A stretch of DNA of 10,260 nt from a virus, in the UHGV virus genome UHGV-0142988; one strand, given 5' to 3'. A model generated the notes under the pieces. The model searched no databases and was not told where the DNA came from. It was given only the letters and a program-made list of their open reading frames with translations. Below are positions 1-10,260 of this stretch, piece after piece; positions within the stretch are counted from its first letter, which is position 1; every line of letters starts with the position of its first letter. The position numbers were made by a program, and so were the translations under genes.

Positions 1-38
1 CGAGTCTCGTGGGCTTCGGAGATGTGTATAAGAGACAG
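1..38. other. Sequencing adapter remnant (Nextera/Tn5 mosaic end, one-base indel) at contig start; artefact
   Basis: Positions 20-38 read AGATGTGTATAAGAGACAG, the 19-bp Tn5 mosaic end, preceded by GTCTCGTGGGCT(T)CGG, the Nextera read-2 adapter with one extra T. Confidence 0.85.
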
Positions 39-42
39 CTCA

Positions 43-238
43 TGTCCGCCCCACACGGACACTTCCCCAAATTTGTCCGTCCACCACGGACACTCACAGA
101 CACAGATGTCCTCTGTACGCACACAACGGACAAAATAATAGTGCAATATACACAACTATTACTGGAAATCAATCCAATAATTGTGCACATTGCACTATAA
201 AAATCAGTTATTTTAGAACATTATGCTCTTGTGTCCGT
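43..238. repeat. Terminal-region short repeats TGTCCG(T)/ACGGACA: two hairpin-capable inverted pairs (~43-61, ~74-92) plus solo copies (~126-132, ~232-238)
   Basis: Six copies of the 6-7-mer within ~200 bp directly after the adapter; the first two pairs are inverted repeats with 5-7 nt spacers. Confidence 0.6.
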
Positions 239-269
239 GTGTGAGAGACACATACAGGGGTGATGTTTT

Positions 270-283
270 CGAACATGTGTTCT
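270..283. promoter_or_regulatory. Candidate LexA/DinR SOS box (Cheo-box-like, cGAAC-atgt-GTTCt), with an overlapping GTTC-tat-GAAC
   Basis: GAAC-N4-GTTC with 5' flanking C, ~17 bp upstream of the predicted -35. This is the only such site I found in the window. Confidence 0.5.
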
Positions 284-299
284 ATGAACAATATGGACT

Positions 300-328
300 T
301 TGAATAAATCTAAATAATTACATATAAT
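300..328 (+). promoter_or_regulatory. Candidate sigma-A-type promoter for the rightward early operon
   Basis: TTGAAT (-35, ~300-305), 17-bp spacer, TATAAT (-10, ~323-328); ~30 bp upstream of a GAGGTG RBS and the ATG at 359. Confidence 0.5.
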
Positions 329-358
329 AATGTTATCAAATGAAAGAGAGGTGAACAG

Positions 359-508
359 ATGACAGATTACGAAGAAAGCTACAAAAATTATCTTGCATGG
401 CTCACTCCACGTGAGCTATTGCATGAATACAAGATCATGCGTTTACCGTGGCGTTATCGGGAACGAAAATGGATCAAAGAAGAAATAGAAAGTAGGTGTG
501 TGTACTAA
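359..508 (+). CDS. Small hypothetical protein (49 aa; MTDYEESYKNYLAWL...), below the ORF-track length cutoff
   Basis: ATG with GAGGTG RBS ~7 nt upstream; first ORF after the promoter; read by eye. Confidence 0.35.
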   Translation: MTDYEESYKNYLAWLTPRELLHEYKIMRLPWRYRERKWIKEEIESRCVY

Positions 509-602
509 TGTTGGATGCTATATTGTGGTTTGGTTTTGGTGCTATATTAATTTTTCCGTATGGAGTTTGGTGTGGGGCAAAATGGTCAGGAGGATATAAG
601 AA

Positions 603-806
603 ATGAAAAATTATTGTGATATATGTTTTACATGTAATGATGCTGAAGTTTGTCATTCATGTAGCCAGCCAGAGATTTGTTCCGAATTTAAAAAGTGTTT
701 TGATCATAAGCCTTATATAATGTGGGAGAAAATGACAAGTTTTGACGATATCATGAGATGTGTTGAGAAATGGAGGGTGTACAATGAGCAGACCGTTAAA
801 CAGTAA
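603..806 (+). CDS. Small Cys-rich protein (67 aa), possible zinc-ribbon-like
   Basis: AGGAGG RBS ~7 nt upstream of the ATG; CxxCxxC...CxxC spacing in the N-terminal 32 residues (seven Cys). Confidence 0.55.
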   Translation: MKNYCDICFTCNDAEVCHSCSQPEICSEFKKCFDHKPYIMWEKMTSFDDIMRCVEKWRVYNEQTVKQ

Positions 807-1041
807 GAAGTCATGGTATAAGGTATATATCAAAGAATTAAATACACCGAATATCATTAAAAGTCAGTGTAAATATAAATGCGATTATCTATTAGTAAAG
901 GCATACACAGGATCAGTCGCAATGGCAATCGTGCAGGACTACGTTGTCGAGTTTGAAGAAAATTTCCGTCCTGTATACTACAACAAATTGGAGGGAGGTG
1001 TTCCTATTGACAACAAAAAAGTCTTATTTGAAGAAGAGTAA
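784..1041 (+). CDS. Hypothetical protein (86 aa from internal ATG; track ORF begins at 760)
   Basis: GGAGGG RBS ~6 nt upstream of the ATG at 784; overlaps the 3' end of the previous gene; protein-like composition. Confidence 0.45.
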   Translation: MSRPLNSKKSWYKVYIKELNTPNIIKSQCKYKCDYLLVKAYTGSVAMAIVQDYVVEFEENFRPVYYNKLEGGVPIDNKKVLFEEE

Positions 1042-1648
1042 ACCACAAGGTCTTATAAGAACAAAAGACGATTATACGCCGCTTGCTCTCGAGTTAACAT
1101 GGGATATGAAAGACGTTAGAAAAGAGTATTCACGGTTAAGATCAATCTGGCGTAAACGTTATGAAAGATTACTGAAATCTGACTATAAAGATATCAACCT
1201 TGTAACGGATCGACCGATCCAACGTTACAAGCAGTTGAAAGATATAACAAGTGATAGAGAACTCTATCACTTGTTATCTGAACTATCAACTATTATAGGA
1301 TCAGATCGAACTACAGTAACAGGATTGAAAAAACGGGAAAAAGAGCAGATGGAACACATCAACGATGTGTATGGAACAGAGTTAAAAACGCACGAAGATT
1401 TATTAAATTTTGGACGTTTCATGGAACAGTTACGGGATTTTGCATCTGATAGAATATACGATTCTGATTTTGCAGTTGATTTATATTCTGATGGTGAAAA
1501 GCTGAGTACGGGCAAAATGTTAGAGCTATACAAGGAATTTTTGAAAACTGGATCACGTAACATCGAAAAATTGAAATCTGGCATAGCAAAGAAAGAAAAA
1601 GCGAAACGTCAGAAGAGGAAAGCAGGCAAACGTAAACGTAGGAGGTAA
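1007..1648 (+). CDS. Candidate terminal protein (~213 aa if started at TTG 1007; track ORF 944..1648)
   Basis: Directly upstream of, and translationally coupled to, the protein-primed DNA polymerase (its stop lies in the polymerase RBS). Strongly basic C-terminal tail KKEKAKRQKRKAGKRKRRR. GGAGGGAGGTG lies ~6 nt upstream of TTG 1007. Function is from synteny, not homology. Confidence 0.45.
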   Translation: MTTKKSYLKKSKPQGLIRTKDDYTPLALELTWDMKDVRKEYSRLRSIWRKRYERLLKSDYKDINLVTDRPIQRYKQLKDITSDRELYHLLSELSTIIGSDRTTVTGLKKREKEQMEHINDVYGTELKTHEDLLNFGRFMEQLRDFASDRIYDSDFAVDLYSDGEKLSTGKMLELYKEFLKTGSRNIEKLKSGIAKKEKAKRQKRKAGKRKRRR

Positions 1649-1651
1649 CAC

Positions 1652-3733
1652 ATGGAAAATCTGTATACTATTGACACATATAATTATAATAGAATACGGA
1701 ATTTACCATGTTTACATGATACTAGGTCTAACAAAGGAAGTAAAAAAGCAAAAGGTTATAAAAATTGTCTGTGTGCTTTCGATATCGAAACAACTAGATT
1801 GGAAGATATCGAGCAGTCAATAATGTATATCTGGCAGTTTTCAATTCTTTTTCTTGATGATTTACATGTTGATACGATAATTGGAAGAACGTGGACAGAA
1901 TTTGAGTTATTTCTTGATAATCTTATGAATGACGATAACTATGCATATTATATGATTTTTGTTCATAATCTTTCATATGAATTTCAGTTTTTGCGTGGTA
2001 TATATACATTTTCACCGGATGAAGTTTTTGCCATAAAATCACGTAGAATATTGAAATGTGAAATGTTAGAGCGTTTCGAGTTTCGTTGCTCATATTTACA
2101 AACTAATATGTCACTAAATACGTTTACCTCAAAAATGAAAGTAAAACATCAGAAATTATCTGGTGAAAAATTCGATTATAGTAAAAAGCGTTTTCCATGG
2201 ACAGAACTAACCGATTATGAAATAAAGTATAGTACATACGACACGATTGGACTAGTTGAAGCAATGTATAAACGTATGATACTGTCAAATGACAATCTAT
2301 ATACACTACCATTAACGTCAACCGGTTATGTACGTCGTGAAACGAAAAAAGCCATGTATGGTTGGTCACGAAAACACAAGGATATATTTCCCACTATAGA
2401 TGTTTTCGATCTGCTAGAGGAGGCGTTTCGGGGCGGAGATACTCACGCTAACCGTTATTACTCAGGAACCGTGATACGTGCATATGGTAAAAATATTCTA
2501 GGAATCGGTTCATATGATAGGTCATCCTCTTATCCTGACGTTGTGTTGAATTGTGTTTTCCCGATGACACGTTTTGTATATATCGGATCAATAGATGAAT
2601 CTGATATAGATAAGAAACTGGATAGAGGAAAAGCACTCTTATTCCGATGTAAAATAACAGGTATTGAGCAGATCGACAAGTATTACGGATCGCCCTATAT
2701 TTCATATTCAAAATGTAGAAATGTTTCATGTGAAACACTTGACAATGGGCGTATTTTAAGTGCTGACTATATTGAAATAACGCTCACTGATATTGATTAT
2801 GAGATAATGAAACGTGAGTACAAATGGAAACATTTTGAAATAACAGAGTGTTATGAGAGTAAATACGGAGCATTGCCAGAACCGTTGAAAGACATTTTCC
2901 GTAAATATTATACTGACAAAACAGAGTTAAAAGGAATCGTGGAACAGGAACTTTTCTACAACTTGCAAAAGGCTTTGCTTAACGCTGGCTATGGAATGAT
3001 GGTTCAATCACCCGTGAAACAGTCGTTAATATTTACAGAATCGGCAGAAAACATATATACAGTTGATGAAAATGTTTCACGTGAAACATTACTCACTAAA
3101 TATAACAGAACAGCTTTCTTGCCTTATCAATGGGGTGTTTGGGTAACAGCATGGGCACGCCAGCGATTGAAAGAGGGTATAAACATAGTTGGAGATCGTT
3201 ACGTTTACAGCGATACGGATTCAGTAAAATATATAAAAGTAAGAGGTGATAATATTGACGAGTTATTTGATAGATACAATTCTGAGAGAAAAGAGCAAAG
3301 TATCTCCAATTCCGCATACGCAACAGACCGTTATGGCGTTAAACATTATATGGGGGTGTATGAATTCGAGGATACGTATACTGAATTCTCCACCATTGGT
3401 ACAAAAAAATATGTCTATAGAACTAAAGATGGAAAACTACACGCAACAATCGCAGGAGTTAATAAAAAGCTTGCACCGGATGAGTTGGAAGAACATGGAG
3501 GAATTGAAGCTTTCAAAACTGGATTTACCTTTTTACGATCAGGAGGAACTGAAAGCGTGTACAATGACGTTCCTTATGGGGATTACACCGTGGAAAATCA
3601 TGTTTTAAAAATTACACAAAATGTAGTTATCAGACCGTCAACTTACACAATAGGAATAACAGATGAGTACCGTAGGATTTTGGCAGACGCAAGAACATTA
3701 AAAGAATTTAAATATACTTTTGACAAAAATTAA
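1652..3733 (+). CDS. Protein-primed family-B DNA polymerase (693 aa)
   Basis: AGGAGG RBS. Exo I FDIETT, Exo II HNLSYEF, Exo III YSTYDTIGLVEAM, motif A YDRSSSYP (Dx2SLYP-like), motif B KALLNAGYG (Kx3NSxYG-like), motif C YSDTDS, KxY in TIGTKKYVY. Confidence 0.95.
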   Translation: MENLYTIDTYNYNRIRNLPCLHDTRSNKGSKKAKGYKNCLCAFDIETTRLEDIEQSIMYIWQFSILFLDDLHVDTIIGRTWTEFELFLDNLMNDDNYAYYMIFVHNLSYEFQFLRGIYTFSPDEVFAIKSRRILKCEMLERFEFRCSYLQTNMSLNTFTSKMKVKHQKLSGEKFDYSKKRFPWTELTDYEIKYSTYDTIGLVEAMYKRMILSNDNLYTLPLTSTGYVRRETKKAMYGWSRKHKDIFPTIDVFDLLEEAFRGGDTHANRYYSGTVIRAYGKNILGIGSYDRSSSYPDVVLNCVFPMTRFVYIGSIDESDIDKKLDRGKALLFRCKITGIEQIDKYYGSPYISYSKCRNVSCETLDNGRILSADYIEITLTDIDYEIMKREYKWKHFEITECYESKYGALPEPLKDIFRKYYTDKTELKGIVEQELFYNLQKALLNAGYGMMVQSPVKQSLIFTESAENIYTVDENVSRETLLTKYNRTAFLPYQWGVWVTAWARQRLKEGINIVGDRYVYSDTDSVKYIKVRGDNIDELFDRYNSERKEQSISNSAYATDRYGVKHYMGVYEFEDTYTEFSTIGTKKYVYRTKDGKLHATIAGVNKKLAPDELEEHGGIEAFKTGFTFLRSGGTESVYNDVPYGDYTVENHVLKITQNVVIRPSTYTIGITDEYRRILADARTLKEFKYTFDKN

Positions 3734-3781
3734 CATATGTGTTATAATTCATGTAAAGAGATATTACAAGGAGGTGATAAT

Positions 3782-4036
3782 ATGAAAATTACACGTTCAT
3801 TAACAGTTAACAAGATCAACGTTATCTGCTACGATCCTGAGAATAAGTGTGAGTTTGTACAGGAAGTTGGTTTGATCGGAAATCTTACTGATGAGCAGAT
3901 CAGCAAAGAGATTAAAAAAAGAAATTTTGGAATTGTTATTGATTGGGAAAGAACATCAGAAGAAACAAAATTATACGGAATGGATGCCGAAGTGTTTTTA
4001 AAAAATGCAATCATTATTAAAGAAAAGGAGAACTAA
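3782..4036 (+). CDS. Hypothetical small protein (84 aa from internal ATG)
   Basis: AGGAGGTG RBS ~6 nt upstream of the ATG at 3782; sits between polymerase and ATPase genes. Confidence 0.55.
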   Translation: MKITRSLTVNKINVICYDPENKCEFVQEVGLIGNLTDEQISKEIKKRNFGIVIDWERTSEETKLYGMDAEVFLKNAIIIKEKEN

Positions 4037-4039
4037 ATC

Positions 4040-4474
4040 ATGGCAAAGAATTATACTATCATTAAATCATCGGGAAACCTTGATACCTATTCAGAATATG
4101 AACTCATCGAGTCACCTGCAATCGTTTCACTTAAAAACGTAGAAAACAAAGGACTTATCTGTGTTGGAGCGTGGGTGAAATATCTTACCACCGACAATAT
4201 CGGAAATGAAATAACCTGCATTTCAGTGCAGGACGCAAACACAGGAGAGGTATTCTCAGGTCAGTCAGCACCTTTCAGAGAAACATTCGAGGCTGTTACC
4301 GATCGTATTTCTGACATGGACGAAGCTCCAGAAATGTTTTTCATCGAGGTTCTTCATAGACAGTCAAAGTCAGGTCGTGATTATCTTATGTGCGCACTTG
4401 TTTCCCCGGATCGTGCTTTTGCCCGCATGGGATATACTGAAAAGAACATTCCTATGCCAGAGCCCCAGAAATAA
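4040..4474 (+). CDS. Hypothetical protein (144 aa); an SSB or DNA-binding role is only a positional guess
   Basis: AAGGAGA RBS before the ATG at 4040; tightly packed with neighbours; no motif recognised. Confidence 0.6.
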   Translation: MAKNYTIIKSSGNLDTYSEYELIESPAIVSLKNVENKGLICVGAWVKYLTTDNIGNEITCISVQDANTGEVFSGQSAPFRETFEAVTDRISDMDEAPEMFFIEVLHRQSKSGRDYLMCALVSPDRAFARMGYTEKNIPMPEPQK

Positions 4475-4475
4475 T

Positions 4476-5525
4476 ATGTTATCGTTATACGAAAATAGCG
4501 GGTATCTATCGATACCCGCTATTTTAGGATATGGACAAAAGTTTAATTACATCTGGGGTGGCCGTGGTACGGGGAAAACTTACGGTGCTCTTAAATACTG
4601 TATTGAACATAAAAAAATTTTTGCTTATATGCGATCATTGCAAACACAAATTGATATGATTAAAATTCCAGAACTTTCACCTTTTAAAAAATTAAATCGT
4701 GATTTAGGATGGTCAATATATCCGAAAAGTGTCGGGAAAAATATTGCTGTGTATTATAATGCAGAAATTGACGAAAATGGTAAAATAAAATATACTGGAG
4801 ATATACTCGGTTATTCCATAGCGTTAAATACATTTGCCAATTTACGAGGTTTTGATGCATCAGACGTTGAGATAGGAATATATGATGAATTTATCCCCGA
4901 AAAACGTGAACGCAAAGTTGAAAATGCTGGATATGCTTTTAAAAACGCATATGAAACAATGAATCGAAACCGTGAACTTGATGGAATTAATCCGATACAG
5001 TTTTTATTGTTTTCTAATTCTGAAAGTTTATCATGTGATATGTTTATAGAGAATAATTTAATGGAAAAAGTATCGAGCATGGATATTAATAAACAATCTA
5101 TGTCTATTATACGTGATAGAGGTATTGGACTTTTTAACTTGTATGATTCGCCGATTTCTGAAAAGAAAAAAGACACAGCTCTGTATAAAATGTCTGGATC
5201 AGATTCAGCATTTAACAGGATGGCACTAGGAAATGAATTTTATTCCGCTGATTATTCAGGAATTAGAAGCATGAACATTAAAGAACTGATACCACTATGT
5301 AAAATGGACGCTATTACAATATATCAGCACAAGAGAAAAGACTTAATATATGTAACACGGCACAGCTCTGGTACACCGCCAGAGTATTCCAATACAGATA
5401 AGGATGTAAAAGCTTTCAGACGAGATTTTATTTATTTATGGGATATGTATTTATCAAACAAGGTGCTGTTTGAGGATATCACAAGCAAGTCCCTATTTGA
5501 GATTTATTTTAAAAATAAATATTGA
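4476..5525 (+). CDS. P-loop ATPase, phi29 gp16-like DNA encapsidation ATPase candidate (349 aa from the ATG right after the upstream stop)
   Basis: Walker A GGRGTGKT near the N-terminus and Walker B EIGIYDEF about 110 residues later. Size and motif spacing fit phage packaging ATPases of the ASCE/FtsK-HerA class. Confidence 0.75.
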   Translation: MLSLYENSGYLSIPAILGYGQKFNYIWGGRGTGKTYGALKYCIEHKKIFAYMRSLQTQIDMIKIPELSPFKKLNRDLGWSIYPKSVGKNIAVYYNAEIDENGKIKYTGDILGYSIALNTFANLRGFDASDVEIGIYDEFIPEKRERKVENAGYAFKNAYETMNRNRELDGINPIQFLLFSNSESLSCDMFIENNLMEKVSSMDINKQSMSIIRDRGIGLFNLYDSPISEKKKDTALYKMSGSDSAFNRMALGNEFYSADYSGIRSMNIKELIPLCKMDAITIYQHKRKDLIYVTRHSSGTPPEYSNTDKDVKAFRRDFIYLWDMYLSNKVLFEDITSKSLFEIYFKNKY

Positions 5526-5671
5526 TTTTGTGTTTTATATCTGATATTATCTTTAATAGAAAGACAAGTGTTCGTGGCACACGTACAACACGTCGGGAGC
5601 GTGGGATCATAAGAATCCAATGTGCATGAGCATGTACAGCTCAAGAATTTGTAACACTTAATCTTTCATCA

Positions 5672-5708
5672 CATATGCAGAGTGTCAAAGCCTGCATATG
5701 TTTTGTTT
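5672..5708 (+). terminator. Candidate intrinsic terminator after the ATPase operon
   Basis: 9-bp stem CATATGCAG / CTGCATATG with an 11-nt loop, followed by TTTTGTTT. Confidence 0.55.
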
Positions 5709-5754
5709 CACGTGAAACATTTATCACCTTTCTTTAATGTTTCACGTGAAACAT
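5704..5754. promoter_or_regulatory. Tandem palindromic operator-like sites: TGTTTCACGTGAAACA (~5704-5719) and ATGTTTCACGTGAAACAT (~5737-5754)
   Basis: Two perfect 16-18-bp palindromes 33 bp apart, directly upstream of a TATAAT-like element (~5774-5779) and the RBS of the gene at 5791. Confidence 0.6.
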
Positions 5755-5790
5755 GTTATATGTTGTGCTAATATATAATGGAGGTGAAAT

Positions 5791-5988
5791 ATGGACGTTA
5801 ACTCATTATCAACTCTTATCAGTAACATTGGTGTGCCTTGCGCCTGCCTTATTGCGACTTTCTATCTTTGGCAGAAAGAAACGGATTCTCACAAAGAAGA
5901 AATGAAACGCATGACAGACGCACTCAACAACAACACTCAGGCACTTACAAAACTCACAGAACATATCACAGGAAGTGAAAAAAAATGA
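5791..5988 (+). CDS. Small single-pass membrane protein, holin-like (65 aa)
   Basis: GGAGGTG RBS; one hydrophobic segment (LSTLISNIGVPCACLIATFYLW) then a charged C-terminal tail; ATGA overlap with the next gene. Confidence 0.55.
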   Translation: MDVNSLSTLISNIGVPCACLIATFYLWQKETDSHKEEMKRMTDALNNNTQALTKLTEHITGSEKK

Positions 5989-6230
5989 CGATTAACTACA
6001 ACAAAAATATCAGAGGTGTGTATATCGTCGCAACGAACACAGGGCCTCTGATGGTCAGGGCAGAGCCTAGTACAGACGGAACAGTTATCGCAGAAATGCC
6101 GAAAAACACAAAATGCATCTGTCTAGGATGCTATTCTGGAAACTGGTATGCAGTCATTTACGAACATGACAGTATCATTTCCACCGGCTTTTCTCACAAA
6201 AATTATCTCAGGAGGGATTATAAGATATGA
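5985..6230 (+). CDS. Stand-alone SH3b-like cell-wall-binding domain protein (81 aa)
   Basis: Pattern GVYIVATNTGPLMVRAEPSTDGTVIAEMPKNTKCICLG...GNWYAVIYEH...GFSHKNYLRR resembles bacterial SH3 domains; no catalytic domain attached. Confidence 0.6.
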   Translation: MTINYNKNIRGVYIVATNTGPLMVRAEPSTDGTVIAEMPKNTKCICLGCYSGNWYAVIYEHDSIISTGFSHKNYLRRDYKI

Positions 6231-6421
6231 CGTTAGACAACTTAATTACACTCATTTCAGCAGGATTCACGAAAGAAGAGATCCTCACAATGTCAGGTAC
6301 AGTCACCCAGCGTGCCCCACAGCCACAGCCACAGCCACAGCCACAGCCACAGCCACAGCCACAGCCACAGCCACAAAATACAAAGCAGAAATTGCAAAAT
6401 CAAGATCTAAATACAAATTAA
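6227..6421 (+). CDS. Small protein with a (PQ)10 linker-like repeat (64 aa)
   Basis: ATGA overlap with the upstream gene; contains the in-frame hexamer repeat. Confidence 0.5.
   Translation: MTLDNLITLISAGFTKEEILTMSGTVTQRAPQPQPQPQPQPQPQPQPQPQNTKQKLQNQDLNTN
6317..6375. repeat. Tandem hexanucleotide repeat (CCACAG) x ~9.8
   Basis: Perfect tandem copies read directly in the sequence; encodes PQPQ... in the 6227 ORF frame. Confidence 0.95.
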
Positions 6422-6608
6422 GTGATATTTTAATTCGTGTAGAAAAAAATAGCCTTTATTTTTATTTGCGTAAATGATTCCTTTACTTTTAGCACTAAAA
6501 GCAAGAAAACTATAATTTTATAATTTTCTTTGTTTAAGGCCAGTAATGTTTTCGGCGTTTCAATTGTCCTCGACGAAGGCCGCTTCCGCGACCTTATCTA
6601 GCCCGTGC

Positions 6609-6965
6609 TCATTGAGAACGATCAACTACCATGTATGTTGGTTGACACAGGCTGCCGCGTTCCTGTAACCAGTAGTAATCAAGATCCGCAACACGCATAT
6701 CCAACCCCGAATCCACACGATTGATCTGTAACCGCAGCCCTACAGTATCTTTGTACGATAAACCAGATTTAACATTGTACTTGTACTTAACCCCGCTTTC
6801 TTCTTCAAAAGATTTGAGATAAGGGGGGATTTGCTTCTGAATTTCTTTCAAACAAATAACTTCCCCATCAATTACGAACGGCTTTTCAGTTTTACCGTCA
6901 GGAATAGTAGCCGCAATTGTGGTTAATGGAACTATCGACAACAGTACTGATAATGCTCTTTTCAT
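6609..6965 (-). CDS. Secreted small protein with N-terminal signal peptide (118 aa from the MKRALS start)
   Basis: AAGGGGA RBS before the internal ATG; MKRALSVLLSIVPLTTIAA is signal-peptide-like with no lipobox Cys; ~20 nt downstream of the partner gene. Confidence 0.6.
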   Translation of the reverse strand: MKRALSVLLSIVPLTTIAATIPDGKTEKPFVIDGEVICLKEIQKQIPPYLKSFEEESGVKYKYNVKSGLSYKDTVGLRLQINRVDSGLDMRVADLDYYWLQERGSLCQPTYMVVDRSQ

Positions 6966-6987
6966 CTGTTCTTCCCCTTGAATATAA

Positions 6988-7599
6988 TCATTGTTTAGAA
7001 CAAATTTGTGTAATGGTTGCATTATGGTTAAATTCAACATCAATTACTTTTATAGTATTATCATTAAGTACAGATACAAAATAATTACTTGACGAATTTC
7101 CGTACTTCCTTGAACCATCTGCTGCAATCTTGTTGAATTTAGCAGTATACACACTATCTTTATCGCCGGGAATTGGCATTCGACTGATTAATTCATTATC
7201 GGAAATAGTATAATAAATTAAAATTCCTTTATCTGAATAGTAACCTGAATCGCTTTTTGTTCCCTGTCGAGTTTGTATTATTGCATCGAACTTATCGCAT
7301 TTATAAACATTGGTTTTGGCCTTTTCAGTACTGGTAGACGTTGAAGCCTTTACATCAGTACTTTTATCTTGTGAAACAACCCCGGAACCGATACCTACCG
7401 AAACGACAAAGACAATAAAACTCATGCCTAACGACGTAATCAAAGTACGGAACTTTCCCCGACCTTTATTTCTGGAATAGTTTGAAACTTTCCTGAAAGT
7501 AAGTACTGCAAGGATCACACAAATGATGAAAACGACAAGCCCGGCCATAAAATCCCTCAAACGTTGTGTATCAAAGGCAATCATAGTATCACTTCGCAA
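6988..7599 (-). CDS. Two-TM membrane protein with Ser/Thr-rich ~130-aa extracytoplasmic domain (203 aa, or 198 aa from ATG 7584)
   Basis: Hydrophobic segments AGLVVFIICVILAVLTF and LITSLGMSFIVFVVSVGIGSGVV separated by a basic loop; TTG start in the track with an in-frame ATG 5 codons later. Confidence 0.6.
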   Translation of the reverse strand: MRSDTMIAFDTQRLRDFMAGLVVFIICVILAVLTFRKVSNYSRNKGRGKFRTLITSLGMSFIVFVVSVGIGSGVVSQDKSTDVKASTSTSTEKAKTNVYKCDKFDAIIQTRQGTKSDSGYYSDKGILIYYTISDNELISRMPIPGDKDSVYTAKFNKIAADGSRKYGNSSSNYFVSVLNDNTIKVIDVEFNHNATITQICSKQ

Positions 7600-7601
7600 T
7601 A

Positions 7602-7624
7602 CATTGATCGATTAAAGCGATCAA
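7602..7624. promoter_or_regulatory. Palindrome ATTGATCG-attaaag-CGATCAAT in a divergent control region (7600-7700) that also carries three ATCAAT copies
   Basis: 8-bp inverted repeat just upstream of the leftward gene start and upstream of the rightward leader. Confidence 0.35.
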
Positions 7625-7699
7625 TTTTTGATTTTCGATCGGTTAAATCTATCAATATCTATTAATTGAAGACAAATCAATAGGTAAAAACGATCAGAC

Positions 7700-8100
7700 G
7701 TTGGTCAGTACTTCGGAAACACCAGAAGTATGGTTTGGGTCTGCCGTTTAAACGCCCTCAGAAAACCGCTAAGGTCTCTTTATCGCATATGGCTTGGGAT
7801 TTCAGCCTTTGGCTAAAATCGCTTTCAGGGGGGCTTCTTGTGCGTTTTGTCGGGAACACCATCATGGAGGGGGATAAATCGGATCGAAGTCGCTTCGCTC
7901 TGGTCAGTACTGGAAGGGTTAGCTTATCTGGCGAGGGAAGATGAATTGCCAGGCTTCATGAAGATGGTTGGTTTTGTGGACAAGAAGAACTGCCGTTTTG
8001 AGTATTCCCCCTCACACCCAACAAACCTACCCATTAGCAAGGGGGAGTACTTTCTCGTAGTATACAGAACGAATAAATTCTTTGTATACTTCCGTTTTAT
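7700..8100 (+). ncRNA. Candidate structured 5' leader / cis-regulatory RNA (class unassigned)
   Basis: ~400 nt without a convincing ORF, visibly more GC than flanks. 12-bp stem (~8001-8012 / 8040-8051, one G-U pair) with a C/A-rich 27-nt loop, then an AT-rich hairpin (~8059-8090) plus U-tract just before the downstream start. The 11-mer TGGTCAGTACT occurs twice (~7703, ~7901). Confidence 0.35.
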
Positions 8101-8111
8101 CCTAAAGCGAT

Positions 8112-8801
8112 TTGATTATGGACGAGAATAATAAAGAAGTTATTGAAATAAGACCAGAAGATAAGGACTTTTTCGCAGAATTTATTGATTGTGAAGGTCC
8201 AATTATCCAAGATTCAATTGATCATAAAAAAATCACCCTCGCACTTGATAAAGCCCACGACATAAGAAAGTTTGAAATAGATCTCTATTGGAAGCGTGCT
8301 ACATACTTCTTCGCATTCTTCACTGTAATAACAGCTGCATTTGGTTATTTGTTCACCCATGACAACTATACTTTCTTAGCCCCTGCACTTGCGATCATTG
8401 GTTCTGTTTTTGCTTTATGTTTTTGTTATGTGAATATCGGTAGTAAGTATTGGCAAGAAAACTGGGAGTTTATAATTGATAAAATTGAATATTATGTCAC
8501 AGGAAACCTTTATAAACTTTTCTTCTTCGAAAACCATAGAACCAAACGCCCATCAGTCACTAAGATTAATATATTTCTAAGCAAGCTAATTATAGCTACA
8601 TGGTACGCTTGCTTTATACTTTCCATGCACCAGATATGGAATCAAAGCATGGTATTAAATGTCTCTTATATTATCCTTACCATATATAGCACTGGAACGA
8701 CATTATATTACTGCGATAAAACTGTTGCAGACATATCGAACAATGATAAAGAATCACCACGATTCTTTAGATTCAGAAATCCTAATTACATAAAATCATA
8801 A
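8112..8801 (+). CDS. Multi-pass (about 4 TM) membrane protein with ~60-aa soluble N-terminal domain (229 aa; probable ATG at 8118)
   Basis: Four hydrophobic segments (ATYFFAFFTVITAAFGYLF; FLAPALAIIGSVFALCFCYVNI; INIFLSKLIIATWYACFILSMH; MVLNVSYIILTIYSTGTTLYY); weak RBS. Confidence 0.65.
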   Translation: MIMDENNKEVIEIRPEDKDFFAEFIDCEGPIIQDSIDHKKITLALDKAHDIRKFEIDLYWKRATYFFAFFTVITAAFGYLFTHDNYTFLAPALAIIGSVFALCFCYVNIGSKYWQENWEFIIDKIEYYVTGNLYKLFFFENHRTKRPSVTKINIFLSKLIIATWYACFILSMHQIWNQSMVLNVSYIILTIYSTGTTLYYCDKTVADISNNDKESPRFFRFRNPNYIKS

Positions 8802-8805
8802 ACAT

Positions 8806-8824
8806 GGGGGCATTTGATGCCCCT
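8806..8824 (+). terminator. Candidate terminator hairpin GGGGCAT-ttg-ATGCCCC just after the stop codon
   Basis: Perfect 7-bp GC-rich stem with 3-nt loop; the downstream U-tract is weak on plus and better on the minus strand. Confidence 0.45.
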
Positions 8825-9065
8825 TGTAAATTGATAATCCGACCTAAAAACACTTTGAGTACTTCATTTGTCAGTACTGTTATCTGTTTGAGCGAAAGCG
8901 AGTAACGGCTTTGGCGTGCTTTCGAGTACTGCGAGAAAAACGCAAAGTTACGATCTGATATTTGGTTTTTATAGAGACTAACAAGCAAAGCGAAGTTAGG
9001 CTCTTTAGATACTGAATATCAGTAAGGCTAATACATTCAAAATATCAGGTGAAAGGCAATATTAT

Positions 9066-9194
9066 ATTAAGTTACGGTTATTCACCCCACTGCATAAAAC
9101 AAGAATAACCTACTGATTTTACGGACTTTTATTTGAATAATAATTCACTAATAATCATGATAACCGTATTTCTTAGTTTTAAGTTACGGTTATA
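9066..9194. repeat. 15-bp direct repeat TTAAGTTACGGTTAT (~9067-9081 and ~9179-9193) with an inverted partial copy ATAACCGTA (~9161-9169)
   Basis: Read directly; lies in a convergent intergenic region abutting the 3' end of the gene at 9202. Confidence 0.7.
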
Positions 9195-9201
9195 GGTACG
9201 A

Positions 9202-9669
9202 TTAAACAATGGTTCGTAGATATGCAATCAGATCTTTCGCTGAGGCATTACTGTTCAATAATTCCTGTACTGCGTTCTTCTGTTCGTCGGTTAATGGCTT
9301 ACCAGGCAATGCTTTCTTTAGTCCACATAGCGTACCACCTTCTTCTACAAACTTATCCAATGCTTTAGCAACTGCGGTACAGGCTAATTTGTACTTCTCG
9401 ATAGATGATTCACTTGCTGCAAATTTCTTCATCTGATCTGAACGGGTTAAGGTAAGATAATACTTAACCTGTACTTTTGAAAGCTCTGTAGCGTGTTTGA
9501 CGATGTAGAAGACATCTTTAACAGGTAACTTGTACTTTCCCAATGATTTACACTCTTGAATCGTCTGGTTAATTATTAGAGTTGCTTCTGATGTTAGGCC
9601 ACTGTAAGTAACACGTTTTAGTGCTTCTTCTAACTTTTTATTGTTATAAATCCTTTCTTTTTTTGCCAT
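9202..9669 (-). CDS. Hypothetical protein (155 aa)
   Basis: Clean ORF with ATG start; protein-like composition; no motif recognised. Confidence 0.6.
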   Translation of the reverse strand: MAKKERIYNNKKLEEALKRVTYSGLTSEATLIINQTIQECKSLGKYKLPVKDVFYIVKHATELSKVQVKYYLTLTRSDQMKKFAASESSIEKYKLACTAVAKALDKFVEEGGTLCGLKKALPGKPLTDEQKNAVQELLNSNASAKDLIAYLRTIV

Positions 9670-9759
9670 GATAAATACCCCTATGGAAGATGTTAATTAA
9701 TATTGGCCTGATGTATTCCTAATACTCAGGCTTTTTATTTAAGAAGAAAATGGGTGGGG

Positions 9760-10026
9760 TTATACTCCACGTACCTTCTTGAACCATTCACGATACTCTG
9801 GCACTTTATTTTTGCGTAAATTGCTAATGAAATCTTGATCGCAATTAACTTTAAGTAAATTACAAATCCTAGCACTTGTCATATCACTTAGTAGGATATT
9901 CTCGTACTGAGAGAATGTTAGTTGAATGAAATTAACCTTTTCTTTCTTTCGAACTGATTTGTTCAATGACTTCCTATTAGTCCTGATTTTATTTTTTGTT
10001 TTTATTTTACCGTTTTTCTTTGACAT
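9760..10026 (-). CDS. Small basic protein with possible C-terminal helix-turn-helix (88 aa)
   Basis: GGAGTG RBS before the ATG; very basic N-terminus (KKNGKIKTKNKIRTNRK) followed by an HTH-like segment. Confidence 0.55.
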   Translation of the reverse strand: MSKKNGKIKTKNKIRTNRKSLNKSVRKKEKVNFIQLTFSQYENILLSDMTSARICNLLKVNCDQDFISNLRKNKVPEYREWFKKVRGV

Positions 10027-10260
10027 TTTGTCACTCCTCTAAATTAAAATTCATCTCATGGTTAACCTCCTACGGCTGTTGTTTATGTTCGATTGGCTAT
10101 ATGTTAACGGGCAAAATTGCCCCAATCAAGGAATAGTTGCAACTTTTTCTTGACAAGATCATTACTATTCAAGTCAAAAAATCATATATCATTTAGGCAC
10201 TATCTTTGGGTAATGACTCCAACTTATTGATAGTGTTTTATGTTCAGATAATGCCCGATG

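What the first reader, a model, noticed from the sequence alone, without database searches (positions are those of the whole stretch)
39..260. Repeat-rich genome terminus next to an adapter junction
Directly after the adapter, the motif TGTCCG(T)/ACGGACA occurs six times in ~200 bp, including two inverted pairs able to form hairpins, plus other short palindromes (GTGCA-cat-TGCAC ~186-198). In protein-primed genomes the origin and terminal protein-polymerase recognition sequences lie at the ends, so this is a candidate origin or terminal-repeat region.
Basis: partly seen in the sequence, partly recalled or inferred. Interest (0 to 1): 0.5.

Follow-up and report, generated by a model that had tools for sequence, protein, structure and literature searches.

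The report
Inverted terminal repeat of phi29-like phage
The repeat-rich stretch is almost the whole left inverted terminal repeat (the likely replication origin) of a small, uncultivated phi29-like gut phage, and its TGTCCG/CGGACA palindromes are conserved sites that always start 12 bases from the genome end.

Summary
Bases 1-38 are a Nextera adapter. Bases 39-~283 are the left inverted terminal repeat (ITR) of a ~13.7-14.3 kb linear phi29-like phage, short of the true end by only 8 nt. Complete relatives carry a 246-304-nt ITR that is 100% identical at both ends. Across 67 distinct contig ends the sequence never extends more than 12 nt beyond the first palindrome, apart from adapters and unrelated joins.

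The motif is a 19-bp palindrome, TGTCCG-N7-CGGACA:
- Perfect at 43-61 and 74-92; degenerate at 114-132 and 232-250.
- Sites 1 and 2 lie at nt 13-31 and ~44-62 from the terminus in every lineage, including phages whose polymerases are only ~33% identical.
- Half-sites never vary and spacers do, which points to a sequence-specific dimeric binder rather than a hairpin.

I infer that these are auxiliary origin sites beside an AT-rich 12-bp end. The binder is unknown.

Also seen:
- A 61-nt palindrome that occurs in both orientations (flip/flop).
- A LexA-like box at the inner ITR boundary.
- Four parS-like sites.
- The contig is a chimera: 6317-10260 is E. coli DNA plus IS1.

This is a known kind of element with a previously undescribed conserved site architecture. 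Interest is moderate.

The parts
1..38 (.). Sequencing adapter (Nextera read-2 / Tn5 mosaic end, one extra T); not biological
   Evidence: Read directly; adapter identity from my own knowledge. The same AGATGTGTATAAGAGACAG abuts this terminus in the independent contigs L105 and L108.
39..283 (.). Left inverted terminal repeat (ITR) of the phage genome, lacking the outermost 8 nt (GCGATTAT or GCGTTTAT in relatives)
   Evidence: Window 39-6375 is colinear with more than 60 relatives. In complete relatives the two ends are 100% identical in inverted orientation for 246-304 nt. The repeat ends exactly after the GAAC-N4-GTTC box, which is window 270-282.
39..42 (.). Last 4 nt (CTCA) of the 12-nt AT-rich terminal leader
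   Evidence: The longest relatives start GCGATTATCTCA or GCGTTTATCTCA immediately before site 1. The leader-length mode is 12 nt.
43..61 (.). Site 1: perfect 19-bp palindrome TGTCCG-CCCCACA-CGGACA (nt 13-31 from the true terminus)
   Evidence: Half-site columns are invariant and spacer columns variable in 24 distinct related ends. The position is fixed at 12 nt from the end in all lineages.
62..73 (.). Linker with a conserved TTCCCC motif between sites 1 and 2
   Evidence: The linker is CTTCCCCAAATT here. TT(T)CCC(C) is kept in nearly all lineages although flanking bases differ.
74..92 (.). Site 2: perfect 19-bp palindrome TGTCCG-TCCACCA-CGGACA, 31 bp (three helical turns) after site 1
   Evidence: (D17).
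114..132 (.). Site 3: degenerate palindrome TGTACG-CACACAA-CGGACA (1 mismatch)
   Evidence: It is a perfect TGTCCG...CGGACA in relative L004. Related lineages have third and fourth sites at ~32-34-bp spacing.
138..198 (.).
   Evidence: I12. L031 matches window 138-197 in reverse orientation at 93% identity. There are 46 'flip' and 13 'flop' ends, and contig L024 carries one of each. The ssDNA hairpin is -12.7 kcal/mol, z = -5.6. There is no covariation for or against pairing.
231..251 (.). Site 4: conserved GTGTCCG half-site inside the palindrome GTGTC-N11-GACAC. It belongs to a ~53-nt unit that is tandemly duplicated in some relatives
   Evidence: 2 mismatches to the 19-mer. The same GTGTCCGTGTGAGAAAGACAC element occurs in the 15-17 kb lineage, whose polymerase is only 33% identical. 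Tandem copies occur in L014, L030, L034 and L046.
270..282 (.). CGAACATGTGTTC: GAAC-N4-GTTC box resembling the Firmicute LexA (Cheo) box; marks the inner edge of the ITR
   Evidence: It is the only exact match in the window. Exact GAAC-N4-GTTC boxes are ~140-fold enriched in the terminal 350 nt of 19 representative genomes. The ITR ends right after it. The LexA consensus is from my own knowledge.
300..328 (+). Early promoter TTGAAT-17-TATAAT, just inside the ITR boundary (unique sequence), reading into the early genes
   Evidence: Best promoter-like site in 1-1000, 10 of 12 matches. Conserved in all relatives including the 80%-polymerase lineage.
944..1648 (+). Candidate terminal protein gene (immediately upstream of the polymerase, basic C-terminus, conserved IYDS motif)
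   Evidence: Its position, plus a family present in all 16 representative genomes by transitive phmmer clustering. The alignment shows invariant Y, D-S. No hit in Pfam, PHROGs, NCBIfam or PDB, so the assignment is inferred.
1652..3733 (+). Protein-primed-type family-B DNA polymerase
   Evidence: tblastn hits annotated polymerases of Amedibacillus phages AD70P2/P3, Salmonella phage astrithr, Acinetobacter phage Phanie and Clostridium phage HM2. The profile hits phi29 polymerase 1XHX/2EX3/2PYJ at E=1.2e-15. DIETT and YSDTDS motifs are read.
3737..4036 (+). Small protein matching a PHROG annotated as dsDNA-binding protein (possible p6-like origin-activating protein)
   Evidence: phrog_6370, E=1.5e-5. 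Detectable only in the window lineage and the 80% lineage.

Best explanation
Window 39-~283 is the left inverted terminal repeat of a linear, ~14-kb phi29-like podovirus genome from the human gut. It stops 8 nt short of the true end because the library was made by tagmentation.

I read the ITR as the replication origin of a protein-primed genome, used identically at both ends. Its layout, from the outside in:
1. A 12-bp AT-rich terminal leader whose first and third bases are always the same.
2. Two to four 19-bp palindromes TGTCCG-N7-CGGACA, spaced about three helical turns apart, with the first always at nt 13-31.
3. A 61-nt palindrome that exists in both orientations.
4. A conserved GTGTCCG element.
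5. A LexA-like box at the inner boundary.

Most likely mechanism (inferred):
- A sequence-specific dimeric DNA-binding protein, phage- or host-encoded and not identified, occupies the phased palindromes on one face of the helix next to the terminal-protein-capped end.
- It either helps open the AT-rich 12 bp and recruit the terminal protein-polymerase complex, or it blocks that step as a host-state switch.
- The polymerase then initiates opposite the third template base and jumps back to position 1.
- The displaced strand's ITRs can pair as a panhandle, which would keep the two repeats identical.

Shown here: terminal position, inverted duplication, conservation pattern, polymerase type.
Inferred: origin function, protein binding, jump-back initiation, panhandle homogenisation.
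For: Terminal position
- 24 of 67 distinct related ends stop exactly 12 nt before site 1 and none extends 13-22 nt. The longer ones are adapters or unrelated joins (sequences).

Inverted duplication
- The ITR is 246-304 nt and 100% identical between ends within each complete genome, although genomes differ from one another by 5-10%.
- The double palindrome is at both ends of at least 12 whole contigs.

Protein-primed machinery
- The polymerase profile hits phi29 polymerase at E=1e-15.
- A gp16 ATPase, a phi29-type capsid protein and a connector are present.

Sites look like protein-binding sites
- In a set ascertained through the polymerase rather than the motif, 0 of 24 half-site columns vary, against 8 of 14 spacer columns (p=6e-5) and 22 of 61 other columns (p=2e-4).
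- The same half-sites at the same distance from the end occur in lineages with no detectable DNA similarity to this one and polymerases only 33-43% identical.
- Degenerate third and fourth sites keep one half-site without compensating changes in the other.
- Site spacing is 31-34 bp.

Jump-back initiation
- All 14 distinct 12-nt leaders begin X-Y-X: AAA, GCG, GGG, CGC, GTG. So do the isolates AD70P2 (GTG) and HM2 (ACA).
- Bam35 ends (3'-ATAATA) initiate at the third base and jump back (PMC5175343).

Precedent for proteins acting at protein-primed ends
- phi29 p6 nucleates at nt 46-125 from the ends, and Spo0A sites lie near both phi29 ends (PMC4974454; PMC2731898).
Against: - No binding protein was identified. 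Only terminal protein, polymerase, ATPase, capsid and connector families are shared by all lineages that carry the sites. No small ORF shows a DNA-binding domain in Pfam, PHROGs or NCBIfam except a weak p6-like PHROG match restricted to two lineages.
- The motif-based scans require intact half-sites, so cross-lineage 'invariance' is partly ascertainment. Only the polymerase-ascertained set is unbiased, and it is shallow (~90-95% identical overall).
- Sites 1 and 2 can also form hairpins of -5.6 and -6.6 kcal/mol in single-stranded DNA, and invariant stems cannot exclude a structural role.
- The window contig itself has no right-hand phage end, so its own ITR is inferred from relatives.
- The terminal protein gene is assigned by position only.
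- Assemblies may still miss one or two terminal bases.
Confidence: 0.8

Rival explanations
1. The palindromes act as DNA structures rather than protein sites. In the displaced single strand (or as cruciforms) they fold into hairpins that protect the 3' end, position the polymerase-terminal protein complex, or nucleate the panhandle. The flip/flop of the 61-nt palindrome would then be a by-product of hairpin-mediated template switching.
For: - 39-290 folds much better than shuffles as ssDNA (z=-5.5).
- Individual hairpins are -5.6, -6.6 and -12.7 kcal/mol with z of -4 to -5.6.
- The 61-nt palindrome occurs in both orientations among close relatives, and in one contig the two ends differ. This is what hairpin-driven inversion would give.
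Against: - Half-site sequence, not just complementarity, is fixed across lineages whose polymerases are ~33% identical.
- There is no compensatory change anywhere. Degenerate sites lose pairing on one side only.
- The 61-nt palindrome shows no covariation above shuffles.
- Six-bp stems with 7-nt loops are weak.
Confidence: 0.12
2. The sites are regulatory operators rather than origin elements. A host or phage repressor binds them to silence early transcription or replication in particular host states (SOS off, sporulation). This would be comparable to Spo0A boxes at the phi29 ends or LexA/gp7 control in tectivirus GIL01. The right-end copy would exist only because the ITR is homogenised.
For: - A strong early promoter lies just inside the ITR at 300-328.
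- A LexA-like box sits 17 nt upstream of it and is ~140-fold enriched at termini across lineages.
- The genome also carries parS-like host-factor sites.
- phi29 has Spo0A sites near both ends that block origin activation (PMC2731898).
- Lineages carrying the motif are scattered over the polymerase tree with AD70P2 and HM2 (different hosts, different terminal hexamers) nested among them, which fits a host-specific factor.
Against: - Sites 1-3 lie 170-260 nt upstream of the only convincing promoter.
- No good inward promoter lies inside the ITR.
- Their fixed 12-nt distance from the physical end in every lineage points to an end-related rather than a promoter-related role.
- At the right end the ITR abuts the 3' end of the last gene, so there is nothing to regulate there.
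- This rival overlaps the main explanation (protein binding at the origin) and differs mainly in sign.
Confidence: 0.2
3. The region is an artefact or is not a genome end: adapter-driven misassembly, an internal repeat, or the terminal inverted repeats of an integrated self-synthesising transposon.
For: - The contig begins with an adapter and is demonstrably chimeric further along. Window 6317-10208 is 99.9% E. coli chromosome and 10204-10260 is an IS1 end.
- Polymerase-B-bearing transposons (casposons, Polintons) also have terminal inverted repeats (my own knowledge).
Against: - The same sequence is found at the ends of dozens of independent assemblies from different studies, with the same 12-nt limit and no flanking host DNA.
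- Complete relatives encode a full phi29-like virion module.
- The genome-collection scan found no integrated copy, only one distant MAG contig.
Confidence: 0.03

Closest known systems
Replication origins at the ends of Bacillus phage phi29 and relatives (Salasmaviridae)
   Same: - A linear genome of similar gene content: polymerase related to phi29 polymerase, gp16 ATPase, phi29-type capsid and connector.
- The origin is at the physical ends.
- Some lineages even start AAAGTA, like phi29.
- A p6-like PHROG match sits next to the polymerase.
- Host-factor sites (parS) lie in the genome.
   Different: - phi29 has only a 6-bp ITR. Its origin activator p6 recognises bendability rather than sequence, at nt 46-125.
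- Here the ITR is ~250-300 nt and carries sequence-specific 19-bp palindromes at nt 13-31 and 44-62.
- All genes are on one strand.
- No pRNA family match.
Adenovirus ITR origin (core origin plus NFI and Oct-1 auxiliary sites)
   Same: - Protein-primed replication with a long ITR.
- A short terminal core followed immediately by binding sites for sequence-specific factors, one of which is a dimer on a spaced palindrome (NFI, TTGGC-N5-GCCAA; my own knowledge).
- Jump-back initiation on a terminal reiteration.
   Different: - Eukaryotic virus with unrelated proteins.
- The binders here are unknown and the motif differs.
- This is a resemblance of architecture only, not tested functionally.
Tectiviruses Bam35/GIL01 (Gram-positive, protein-primed)
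   Same: - Terminal X-Y-X triplet compatible with initiation at the third base and single-nucleotide jump-back.
- ITRs of tens of bp.
- LexA boxes control GIL01 (my own knowledge), and a LexA-like box lies in this ITR.
   Different: - Tail-less, membrane-containing virions with different structural genes.
- The LexA box here is at the ITR boundary and has not been shown to bind LexA.
- No gp7-like partner identified.
Iteron-type origins (e.g. phage lambda ori: four 19-bp palindromic O-protein sites next to an AT-rich region)
   Same: Three or four phased ~19-bp palindromic repeats with conserved arms, adjacent to an AT-rich stretch to be opened (lambda facts from my own knowledge).
   Different: - Lambda initiates internally with a helicase loader and RNA priming.
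- Here the AT-rich stretch is the 12-bp genome end and priming is by a terminal protein.
- No O-like initiator gene is present.
ITRs of isolated relatives: Amedibacillus phage AD70P2 and Clostridium phage HM2
   Same: - Same phage group (polymerase ~35% identical).
- ITRs of ~55 and at least 150 nt, starting with X-Y-X, with repeated or inverted hexamers close to the end.
   Different: Their repeated hexamers are different: GTGCTA/TAGCAC in AD70P2 and GGACAT/ATGTC in HM2. The recognition sequence is therefore lineage- or host-specific.

Membership tests
ITR / origin of a protein-primed linear dsDNA phage (phi29-like) | The sequence lies at the physical end of the linear genome | tested here: met
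   The leader before site 1 is exactly 12 nt in 24 of 67 distinct ends and never 13-22 nt. Longer cases are adapters or unrelated joins. Window base 39 is 8 nt from that end.
ITR / origin of a protein-primed linear dsDNA phage (phi29-like) | An inverted copy is present at the other genome end | tested here: met
   Met in complete relatives: 246-304 nt at 100% identity, and both-end matches in at least 12 contigs. It cannot be tested on the window contig itself, whose right part is E. coli DNA.
ITR / origin of a protein-primed linear dsDNA phage (phi29-like) | Family-B DNA polymerase of the protein-primed type encoded in the genome | tested here: met
   The profile of the window polymerase plus 13 relatives hits phi29 polymerase 1XHX/2EX3 at E=1.2e-15 over profile positions 173-538. 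tblastn hits annotated phage polymerases. The single sequence misses Pfam, NCBIfam and PDB.
ITR / origin of a protein-primed linear dsDNA phage (phi29-like) | Terminal protein gene next to the polymerase | tested here: inconclusive
   The ORF at 944-1648 sits directly upstream. Its family is present in all 16 representative genomes and it has a conserved IYDS motif. It has no similarity to any annotated or solved terminal protein.
ITR / origin of a protein-primed linear dsDNA phage (phi29-like) | Terminal base reiteration allowing sliding-back or jumping-back | tested here: met
   All 14 distinct terminal leaders start X-Y-X (AAA, GCG, GGG, CGC, GTG). AD70P2 starts GTG and HM2 starts ACA. The window lacks these bases. 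Which template base directs initiation was not tested.
ITR / origin of a protein-primed linear dsDNA phage (phi29-like) | [quoted passage not shown] | not testable with these tools
   Needs virion DNA: protease dependence of end ligation or sequencing, and an in vitro initiation assay.
Origin iterons / auxiliary origin factor sites (lambda O sites, adenovirus NFI/Oct-1) | Repeated, phased, sequence-specific sites with conserved arms and free spacers next to an AT-rich segment | tested here: met
   Four sites, 31-34-bp spacing. Half-sites have 0 of 24 variable columns against 8 of 14 in spacers. The 12-nt leaders are AT-rich.
Origin iterons / auxiliary origin factor sites (lambda O sites, adenovirus NFI/Oct-1) | A cognate DNA-binding protein, and dependence of initiation on the sites | tested here: inconclusive
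   No candidate binder co-occurs with the sites and no DNA-binding domains were found. Functional dependence is not testable here.
phi29 p6 nucleation regions | Recognition by bendability pattern without a sequence signal, with p6 dimers every 24 bp (PMC4974454) | tested here: not met
   The sites here are sequence-specific palindromes with 31-34-bp spacing. A p6-like PHROG match exists but only in two lineages.
Spo0A 0A boxes near phi29 ends | Consensus TGTCGAA (PMC2731898), with paired boxes separated by 3 bp | tested here: not met
   The motif is TGTCCG in inverted pairs separated by 7 bp. It shares only TGTC with the 0A box.
Firmicute LexA (Cheo) box, for 270-282 only | CGAAC-N4-GTTCG-type palindrome (consensus from my own knowledge) bound by LexA | tested here: inconclusive
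   CGAACATGTGTTC is the only exact match in the window. Boxes are ~140-fold enriched at termini, and L105 has a perfect CGAACACTCGTTCG. Binding, and even the host, are unknown.

The most novel reading that the evidence does not exclude
The TGTCCG-N7-CGGACA array is a conserved, sequence-specific origin-recognition module for a host dimeric DNA-binding protein. It would be a bacterial-virus counterpart of the NFI/Oct-1 sites of adenovirus. Together with the LexA-like box at the ITR boundary and the parS sites, it would let a whole group of gut phi29-like phages couple protein-primed replication to host state (SOS, sporulation, chromosome segregation) and persist as a silent linear episome. The flip/flop palindrome would record hairpin intermediates at the origin.
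Probability: 0.2. Interest if true: 0.6.

Novelty: new member of a known kind. Interest (0 to 1): 0.38.

Why it matters
ITRs are the expected origins of protein-primed phages, so the identity of the region is ordinary.

What the comparison adds is a precise and testable origin architecture for a large, uncultivated group of human-gut phi29-like phages:
- An exact genome end.
- A 12-bp leader whose first and third bases match.
- Phased 19-bp palindromes that stay put while the rest of the genome diverges beyond DNA-level recognition.

This gives experimenters defined oligonucleotide substrates for terminal-protein-primed initiation assays and for fishing out the binding protein. It also gives a simple completeness test for metagenomic assemblies of these phages: the contig must start 12 nt before TGTCCG-N7-CGGACA.

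The accompanying LexA-like and parS-like sites suggest that the host-state-dependent dormancy known for phi29 in Bacillus may be widespread among gut relatives.

Practically, it also flags this contig as an adapter-contaminated chimera of phage and E. coli DNA.

Tried and rejected
- Stop-codon recoding. I considered it to explain the lack of long ORFs in 5.5-10.2 kb. Read-through of TGA, TAG or TAA gives no structural-size ORFs. The real reason is that 6317-10260 is E. coli DNA plus IS1.
- A pRNA or other known RNA in the non-coding terminus. Rfam gives only sub-threshold microRNA-like hairpin matches.
- Covariation support for the 61-nt palindrome as a hairpin. None was found; the observed values do not exceed shuffles.
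- A phage-encoded binder found by co-occurrence. phmmer clustering of all ORFs from 16 genomes shows that no small family tracks the sites. Pfam, PHROGs and NCBIfam find no DNA-binding domain in the small early ORFs.
- The polymerase as the specificity determinant. Lineages with TGTCCG termini are spread over a rough NJ polymerase tree, with AD70P2 and HM2 (other terminal motifs) nested among them.
- Host identification. The polymerase scan of 185,579 species genomes gave only one distant MAG contig.
- Similarity of 39-1000 to deposited phages. blastn found nothing.
- Terminal protein confirmation by a PDB profile search. Only noise.
- Literature search for the motif. Nothing relevant.
- Internal TGTCCG arrays in 30-60 kb prophage-like and environmental contigs. 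These are other repeat families picked up by the pattern and were set aside.
- MT837693 (L001). I first took it to end at site 1. Comparison with L100 shows that it is truncated by two sites.
Full report
**1. What is in the sequence**

Bases 1-38 end in GTCTCGTGGGCTTCGGAGATGTGTATAAGAGACAG. I recognise this as the Nextera read-2 adapter with one inserted T (my own knowledge). Two independent related contigs (L105, L108) carry the same Tn5 mosaic-end 19-mer fused to the same terminus.

TGTCCG/CGGACA occurs six times in the whole 10,260-nt window, and all six lie in 43-237. The count alone is not unusual (2.75 expected). The clustering is (p~2.5e-9).

The real unit is a 19-bp palindrome, TGTCCG-N7-CGGACA:
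- perfect at 43-61 and 74-92;
- one mismatch at 114-132;
- two mismatches at 232-250.

Chance expectation for this pattern is 0.12 per window.

GTGCA-cat-TGCAC (184-196) is part of a 61-nt imperfect palindrome at 138-198.

**2. What genome this is**

Downstream ORFs are as follows.
- A 693-aa family-B polymerase (DIETT and YSDTDS motifs). It hits annotated polymerases of Amedibacillus phages AD70P2/P3, Clostridium phage HM2, Salmonella phage astrithr and Acinetobacter phage Phanie.
- A gp16-type packaging ATPase.
- A small protein matching a PHROG annotated as dsDNA-binding.

The polymerase alone misses Pfam, NCBIfam and PDB. A profile of it with 13 relatives hits phi29 polymerase structures at E=1.2e-15.

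Sixty-five IMG/VR contigs encode 76-97% identical polymerases and indicate a genome of ~13.7-14.3 kb. A complete one, L030, has all genes on one strand and encodes a phi29-type capsid protein, a connector and a tail lysozyme.

The ORF directly upstream of the polymerase (944-1648) is the candidate terminal protein. The evidence is its position, a family shared by all 16 representative genomes, and a conserved IYDS motif. No database confirms it.

**3. The region is the genome end and is inverted-repeated**

Window 39-6375 is colinear with the relatives. In complete relatives the first 246-304 nt are 100% identical to the reverse complement of the last 246-304 nt. The genomes differ from each other by 5-10%. 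The two copies are therefore homogenised within each genome.

The repeat ends exactly after a GAAC-N4-GTTC box, which is window 270-282. The window ITR is thus 39-~283, and the finding (39-260) covers most of it.

A pattern scan for two adjacent sites found the module at both ends of at least 12 whole contigs in IMG/VR and at many ends in metagenome assemblies.

Over 67 distinct ends, the distance from the contig end to site 1 has a sharp mode at 12 nt (24 ends), with nothing at 13-22 nt. The five longer cases are a TruSeq adapter, a Nextera adapter, two unrelated sequences and one fold-back join. The window starts 4 nt before site 1, so it is 8 nt short of the end. That is expected for a tagmentation library, which cannot capture the very end.

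**4. Conservation pattern of the palindromes**

In the polymerase-ascertained set (no motif bias) there are 24 distinct left or right ends. All 24 half-site columns of sites 1 and 2 are invariant. By contrast, 8 of 14 spacer columns vary (Fisher p=6e-5), as do 22 of 61 other columns (p=2e-4).

Beyond that set, the same module occurs at the ends of 12.4-17.2 kb phages. The module is a 12-nt leader, site 1, a linker with TTCCCC, and site 2, with 31-32 bp from start to start. These phages show no blastn similarity to L030, and their polymerases are only 33-58% identical to the window's. This second observation is partly circular, because the scan demanded the half-sites. The fixed 12-nt offset, the linker motif and the extra sites were not demanded.

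Some lineages have four sites at ~32-34-bp spacing. The distal sites keep TGTCCG but lose the other arm without compensation. The window's site 4 element (GTGTCCGTGTGTGAGAGACAC) recurs almost unchanged in the 15-17 kb lineage.

The isolates AD70P2 and HM2 are nested among these lineages on a rough polymerase tree. They have ITRs with different repeated hexamers.

**5. How it most likely works**

Shown:
- terminal position;
- perfect ITR;
- protein-primed-type polymerase;
- sequence-specific, phased, arm-conserved palindromes abutting an AT-rich 12-bp end.

Inferred:
- The ITR is the origin used at both ends.
- A dimeric sequence-specific protein binds the palindromes on one helical face.
- That protein either promotes opening of the end and recruitment of the terminal protein-polymerase complex, or represses it.

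The positive role would resemble p6 in phi29 and, architecturally, NFI/Oct-1 at adenovirus ITRs (my own knowledge). The negative role would resemble Spo0A at the phi29 ends.

All 14 distinct leaders, plus the two isolates, begin X-Y-X: AAA, GCG, GGG, CGC, GTG, ACA. This fits initiation opposite the third template base followed by a jump or slide back to base 1, as shown for Bam35.

The binder is unknown. No small protein family co-occurs with the sites, which leaves three candidates: a host factor, the terminal protein, or a fast-evolving phage protein. I put ~0.95 on 'ITR of a protein-primed phage' and ~0.55 on 'protein-binding origin sites that act in initiation'.

**6. Rivals**

- *Hairpins in displaced ssDNA.* The folds are favourable. 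However, sequence rather than pairing is conserved, one-sided degeneration occurs, and there is no covariation.
- *Transcriptional or host-state operators.* This is plausible given the nearby early promoter (300-328) and the LexA-like box. However, the sites track the physical end, not the promoter, and the right-hand copy has nothing to regulate.
- *Artefact, internal repeat or transposon TIR.* This is excluded by dozens of independent assemblies ending at the same base with no host flanks.

**7. Comparison with the known**

The element is a member of the known class 'ITR/origin of protein-primed phi29-like phages'. A 2024 survey already lists ~13.8-kb human-metagenome clusters of this kind (PMC11476376).

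It differs from phi29 itself in three ways:
- a 250-300-nt rather than a 6-bp ITR;
- sequence-specific palindromes where phi29 uses sequence-independent p6 nucleation;
- no pRNA family match.

It fails the definitions of Spo0A boxes and of p6 nucleation regions.

I found no description of the TGTCCG-N7-CGGACA module (a limited search). I rate it a new member of a known kind with an undescribed site architecture, of moderate interest.

**8. Other things seen**

- *Chimeric contig.* Window 6317-10208 is 99.9% identical to E. coli chromosomes, and 10204-10260 is an IS1 end. The join lies in a (CCACAG)n repeat present in both sources.
- *Flip/flop palindrome.* The 61-nt palindrome at 138-198 occurs in both orientations among relatives: 46 flip and 13 flop ends. 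The two ends agree in 13 of 14 genomes and differ in one.
- *LexA-like boxes.* GAAC-N4-GTTC boxes are ~140-fold enriched at termini.
- *parS-like sites.* The 16-bp palindrome TGTTTCACGTGAAACA matches the parS consensus (my own knowledge). It occurs four times in the window (chance 0.05) and in most related lineages including HM2. This recalls the five parS sites that phi29 uses for spore entrapment.

Noticed in passing
window 6317-10260 (junction within 6305-6381): The contig is a chimera. Phage homology stops at 6375. Window 6317-10208 is 99.9% identical to E. coli chromosomes (29 genomes; includes a RipA/8xMP octameric membrane protein gene at 8112-8801). Window 10204-10260 is an IS1 terminal repeat. 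The join lies inside a (CCACAG)n hexanucleotide repeat present in both sources.
   Followed up: yes
window 2722-2737, 3073-3088, 5704-5719, 5738-5753: There are four copies of the 16-bp palindrome TGTTTCACGTGAAACA (three perfect, one with 1 mismatch; chance 0.05). It matches the Firmicute parS/Spo0J site consensus TGTTNCACGTGAAACA (my own knowledge). Two copies lie inside the polymerase gene and two in the intergenic region before the holin-like ORF. One to four such sites occur in most related lineages, including Clostridium phage HM2. phi29 carries five parS sites used for spore entrapment (PMC2731898).
   Followed up: partly
window 270-282: CGAACATGTGTTC resembles the Firmicute LexA (Cheo) box. 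It sits at the inner boundary of the ITR, 17 nt upstream of the early promoter's -35. Exact GAAC-N4-GTTC boxes are ~140-fold enriched in the terminal 350 nt of 19 representative genomes. L105 has a perfect CGAACACTCGTTCG, and the box is tandemly repeated with a ~53-nt unit in L014 and L030.
   Followed up: partly
window 138-198: The 61-nt imperfect palindrome is found in both orientations among close relatives (46 flip, 13 flop ends). The two ITRs of one genome agree in 13 of 14 cases, but contig L024 has flop on the left and flip on the right. A weak outward-facing promoter-like site (172 to 145, minus strand) would flip with it. There is no covariation evidence for a hairpin.
   Followed up: partly
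relatives only: first 12 nt of L031, L040, L073, L075, L084, L087, L094, L103, L113, L151, L212 and others (the window lacks these bases): All 14 distinct terminal leaders are exactly 12 nt, are AT-rich, and start with a triplet whose first and third bases are equal (AAA, GCG, GGG, CGC, GTG). Several start AAAGTA, like phi29. The isolates AD70P2 (GTG) and HM2 (ACA) follow the same rule.
   Followed up: partly
L139 (Amedibacillus phage AD70P2) 1-55 and L140 (Clostridium phage HM2) 1-150: Isolated relatives have ITRs built on different repeated hexamers: GTGCTA/TAGCAC four times in AD70P2, and GGACAT...ATGTC in HM2. The terminal recognition motif therefore appears to be lineage- or host-specific.
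   Followed up: no
L081, L085, L092, L099 and others; L088, L102; L095; L119, L137: Unrelated 30-60 kb prophage-like contigs contain internal arrays built on the same hexamer, e.g. CCATGTCCGG/CCGGACATGG repeats and runs of TGTCCGGACA. They look like iteron or operator arrays of other phages.
   Followed up: no
window 4469-4548: This is the longest local inverted repeat in the window (38-nt arms, 76% complementary, 4-nt loop), at the end of the 144-aa ORF and the start of the packaging ATPase region. No Rfam pRNA match was found anywhere in the phage part, so the location of any packaging RNA is open.
   Followed up: no
window 6227-6421 and 6305-6381: The (CCACAG)n repeat encodes a (PQ)n run in a phage ORF (a 162-aa protein in L030) and evidently also exists in E. 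coli DNA. It is an example of a simple repeat causing a cross-genome misassembly.
   Followed up: partly
window 944-1648: The candidate terminal protein has a strongly basic C-terminal tail (KRQKRKAGKRKRRR). It also has an IYDS motif with invariant D-S across lineages that are otherwise 23-37% identical, which is a possible priming residue region.
   Followed up: partly
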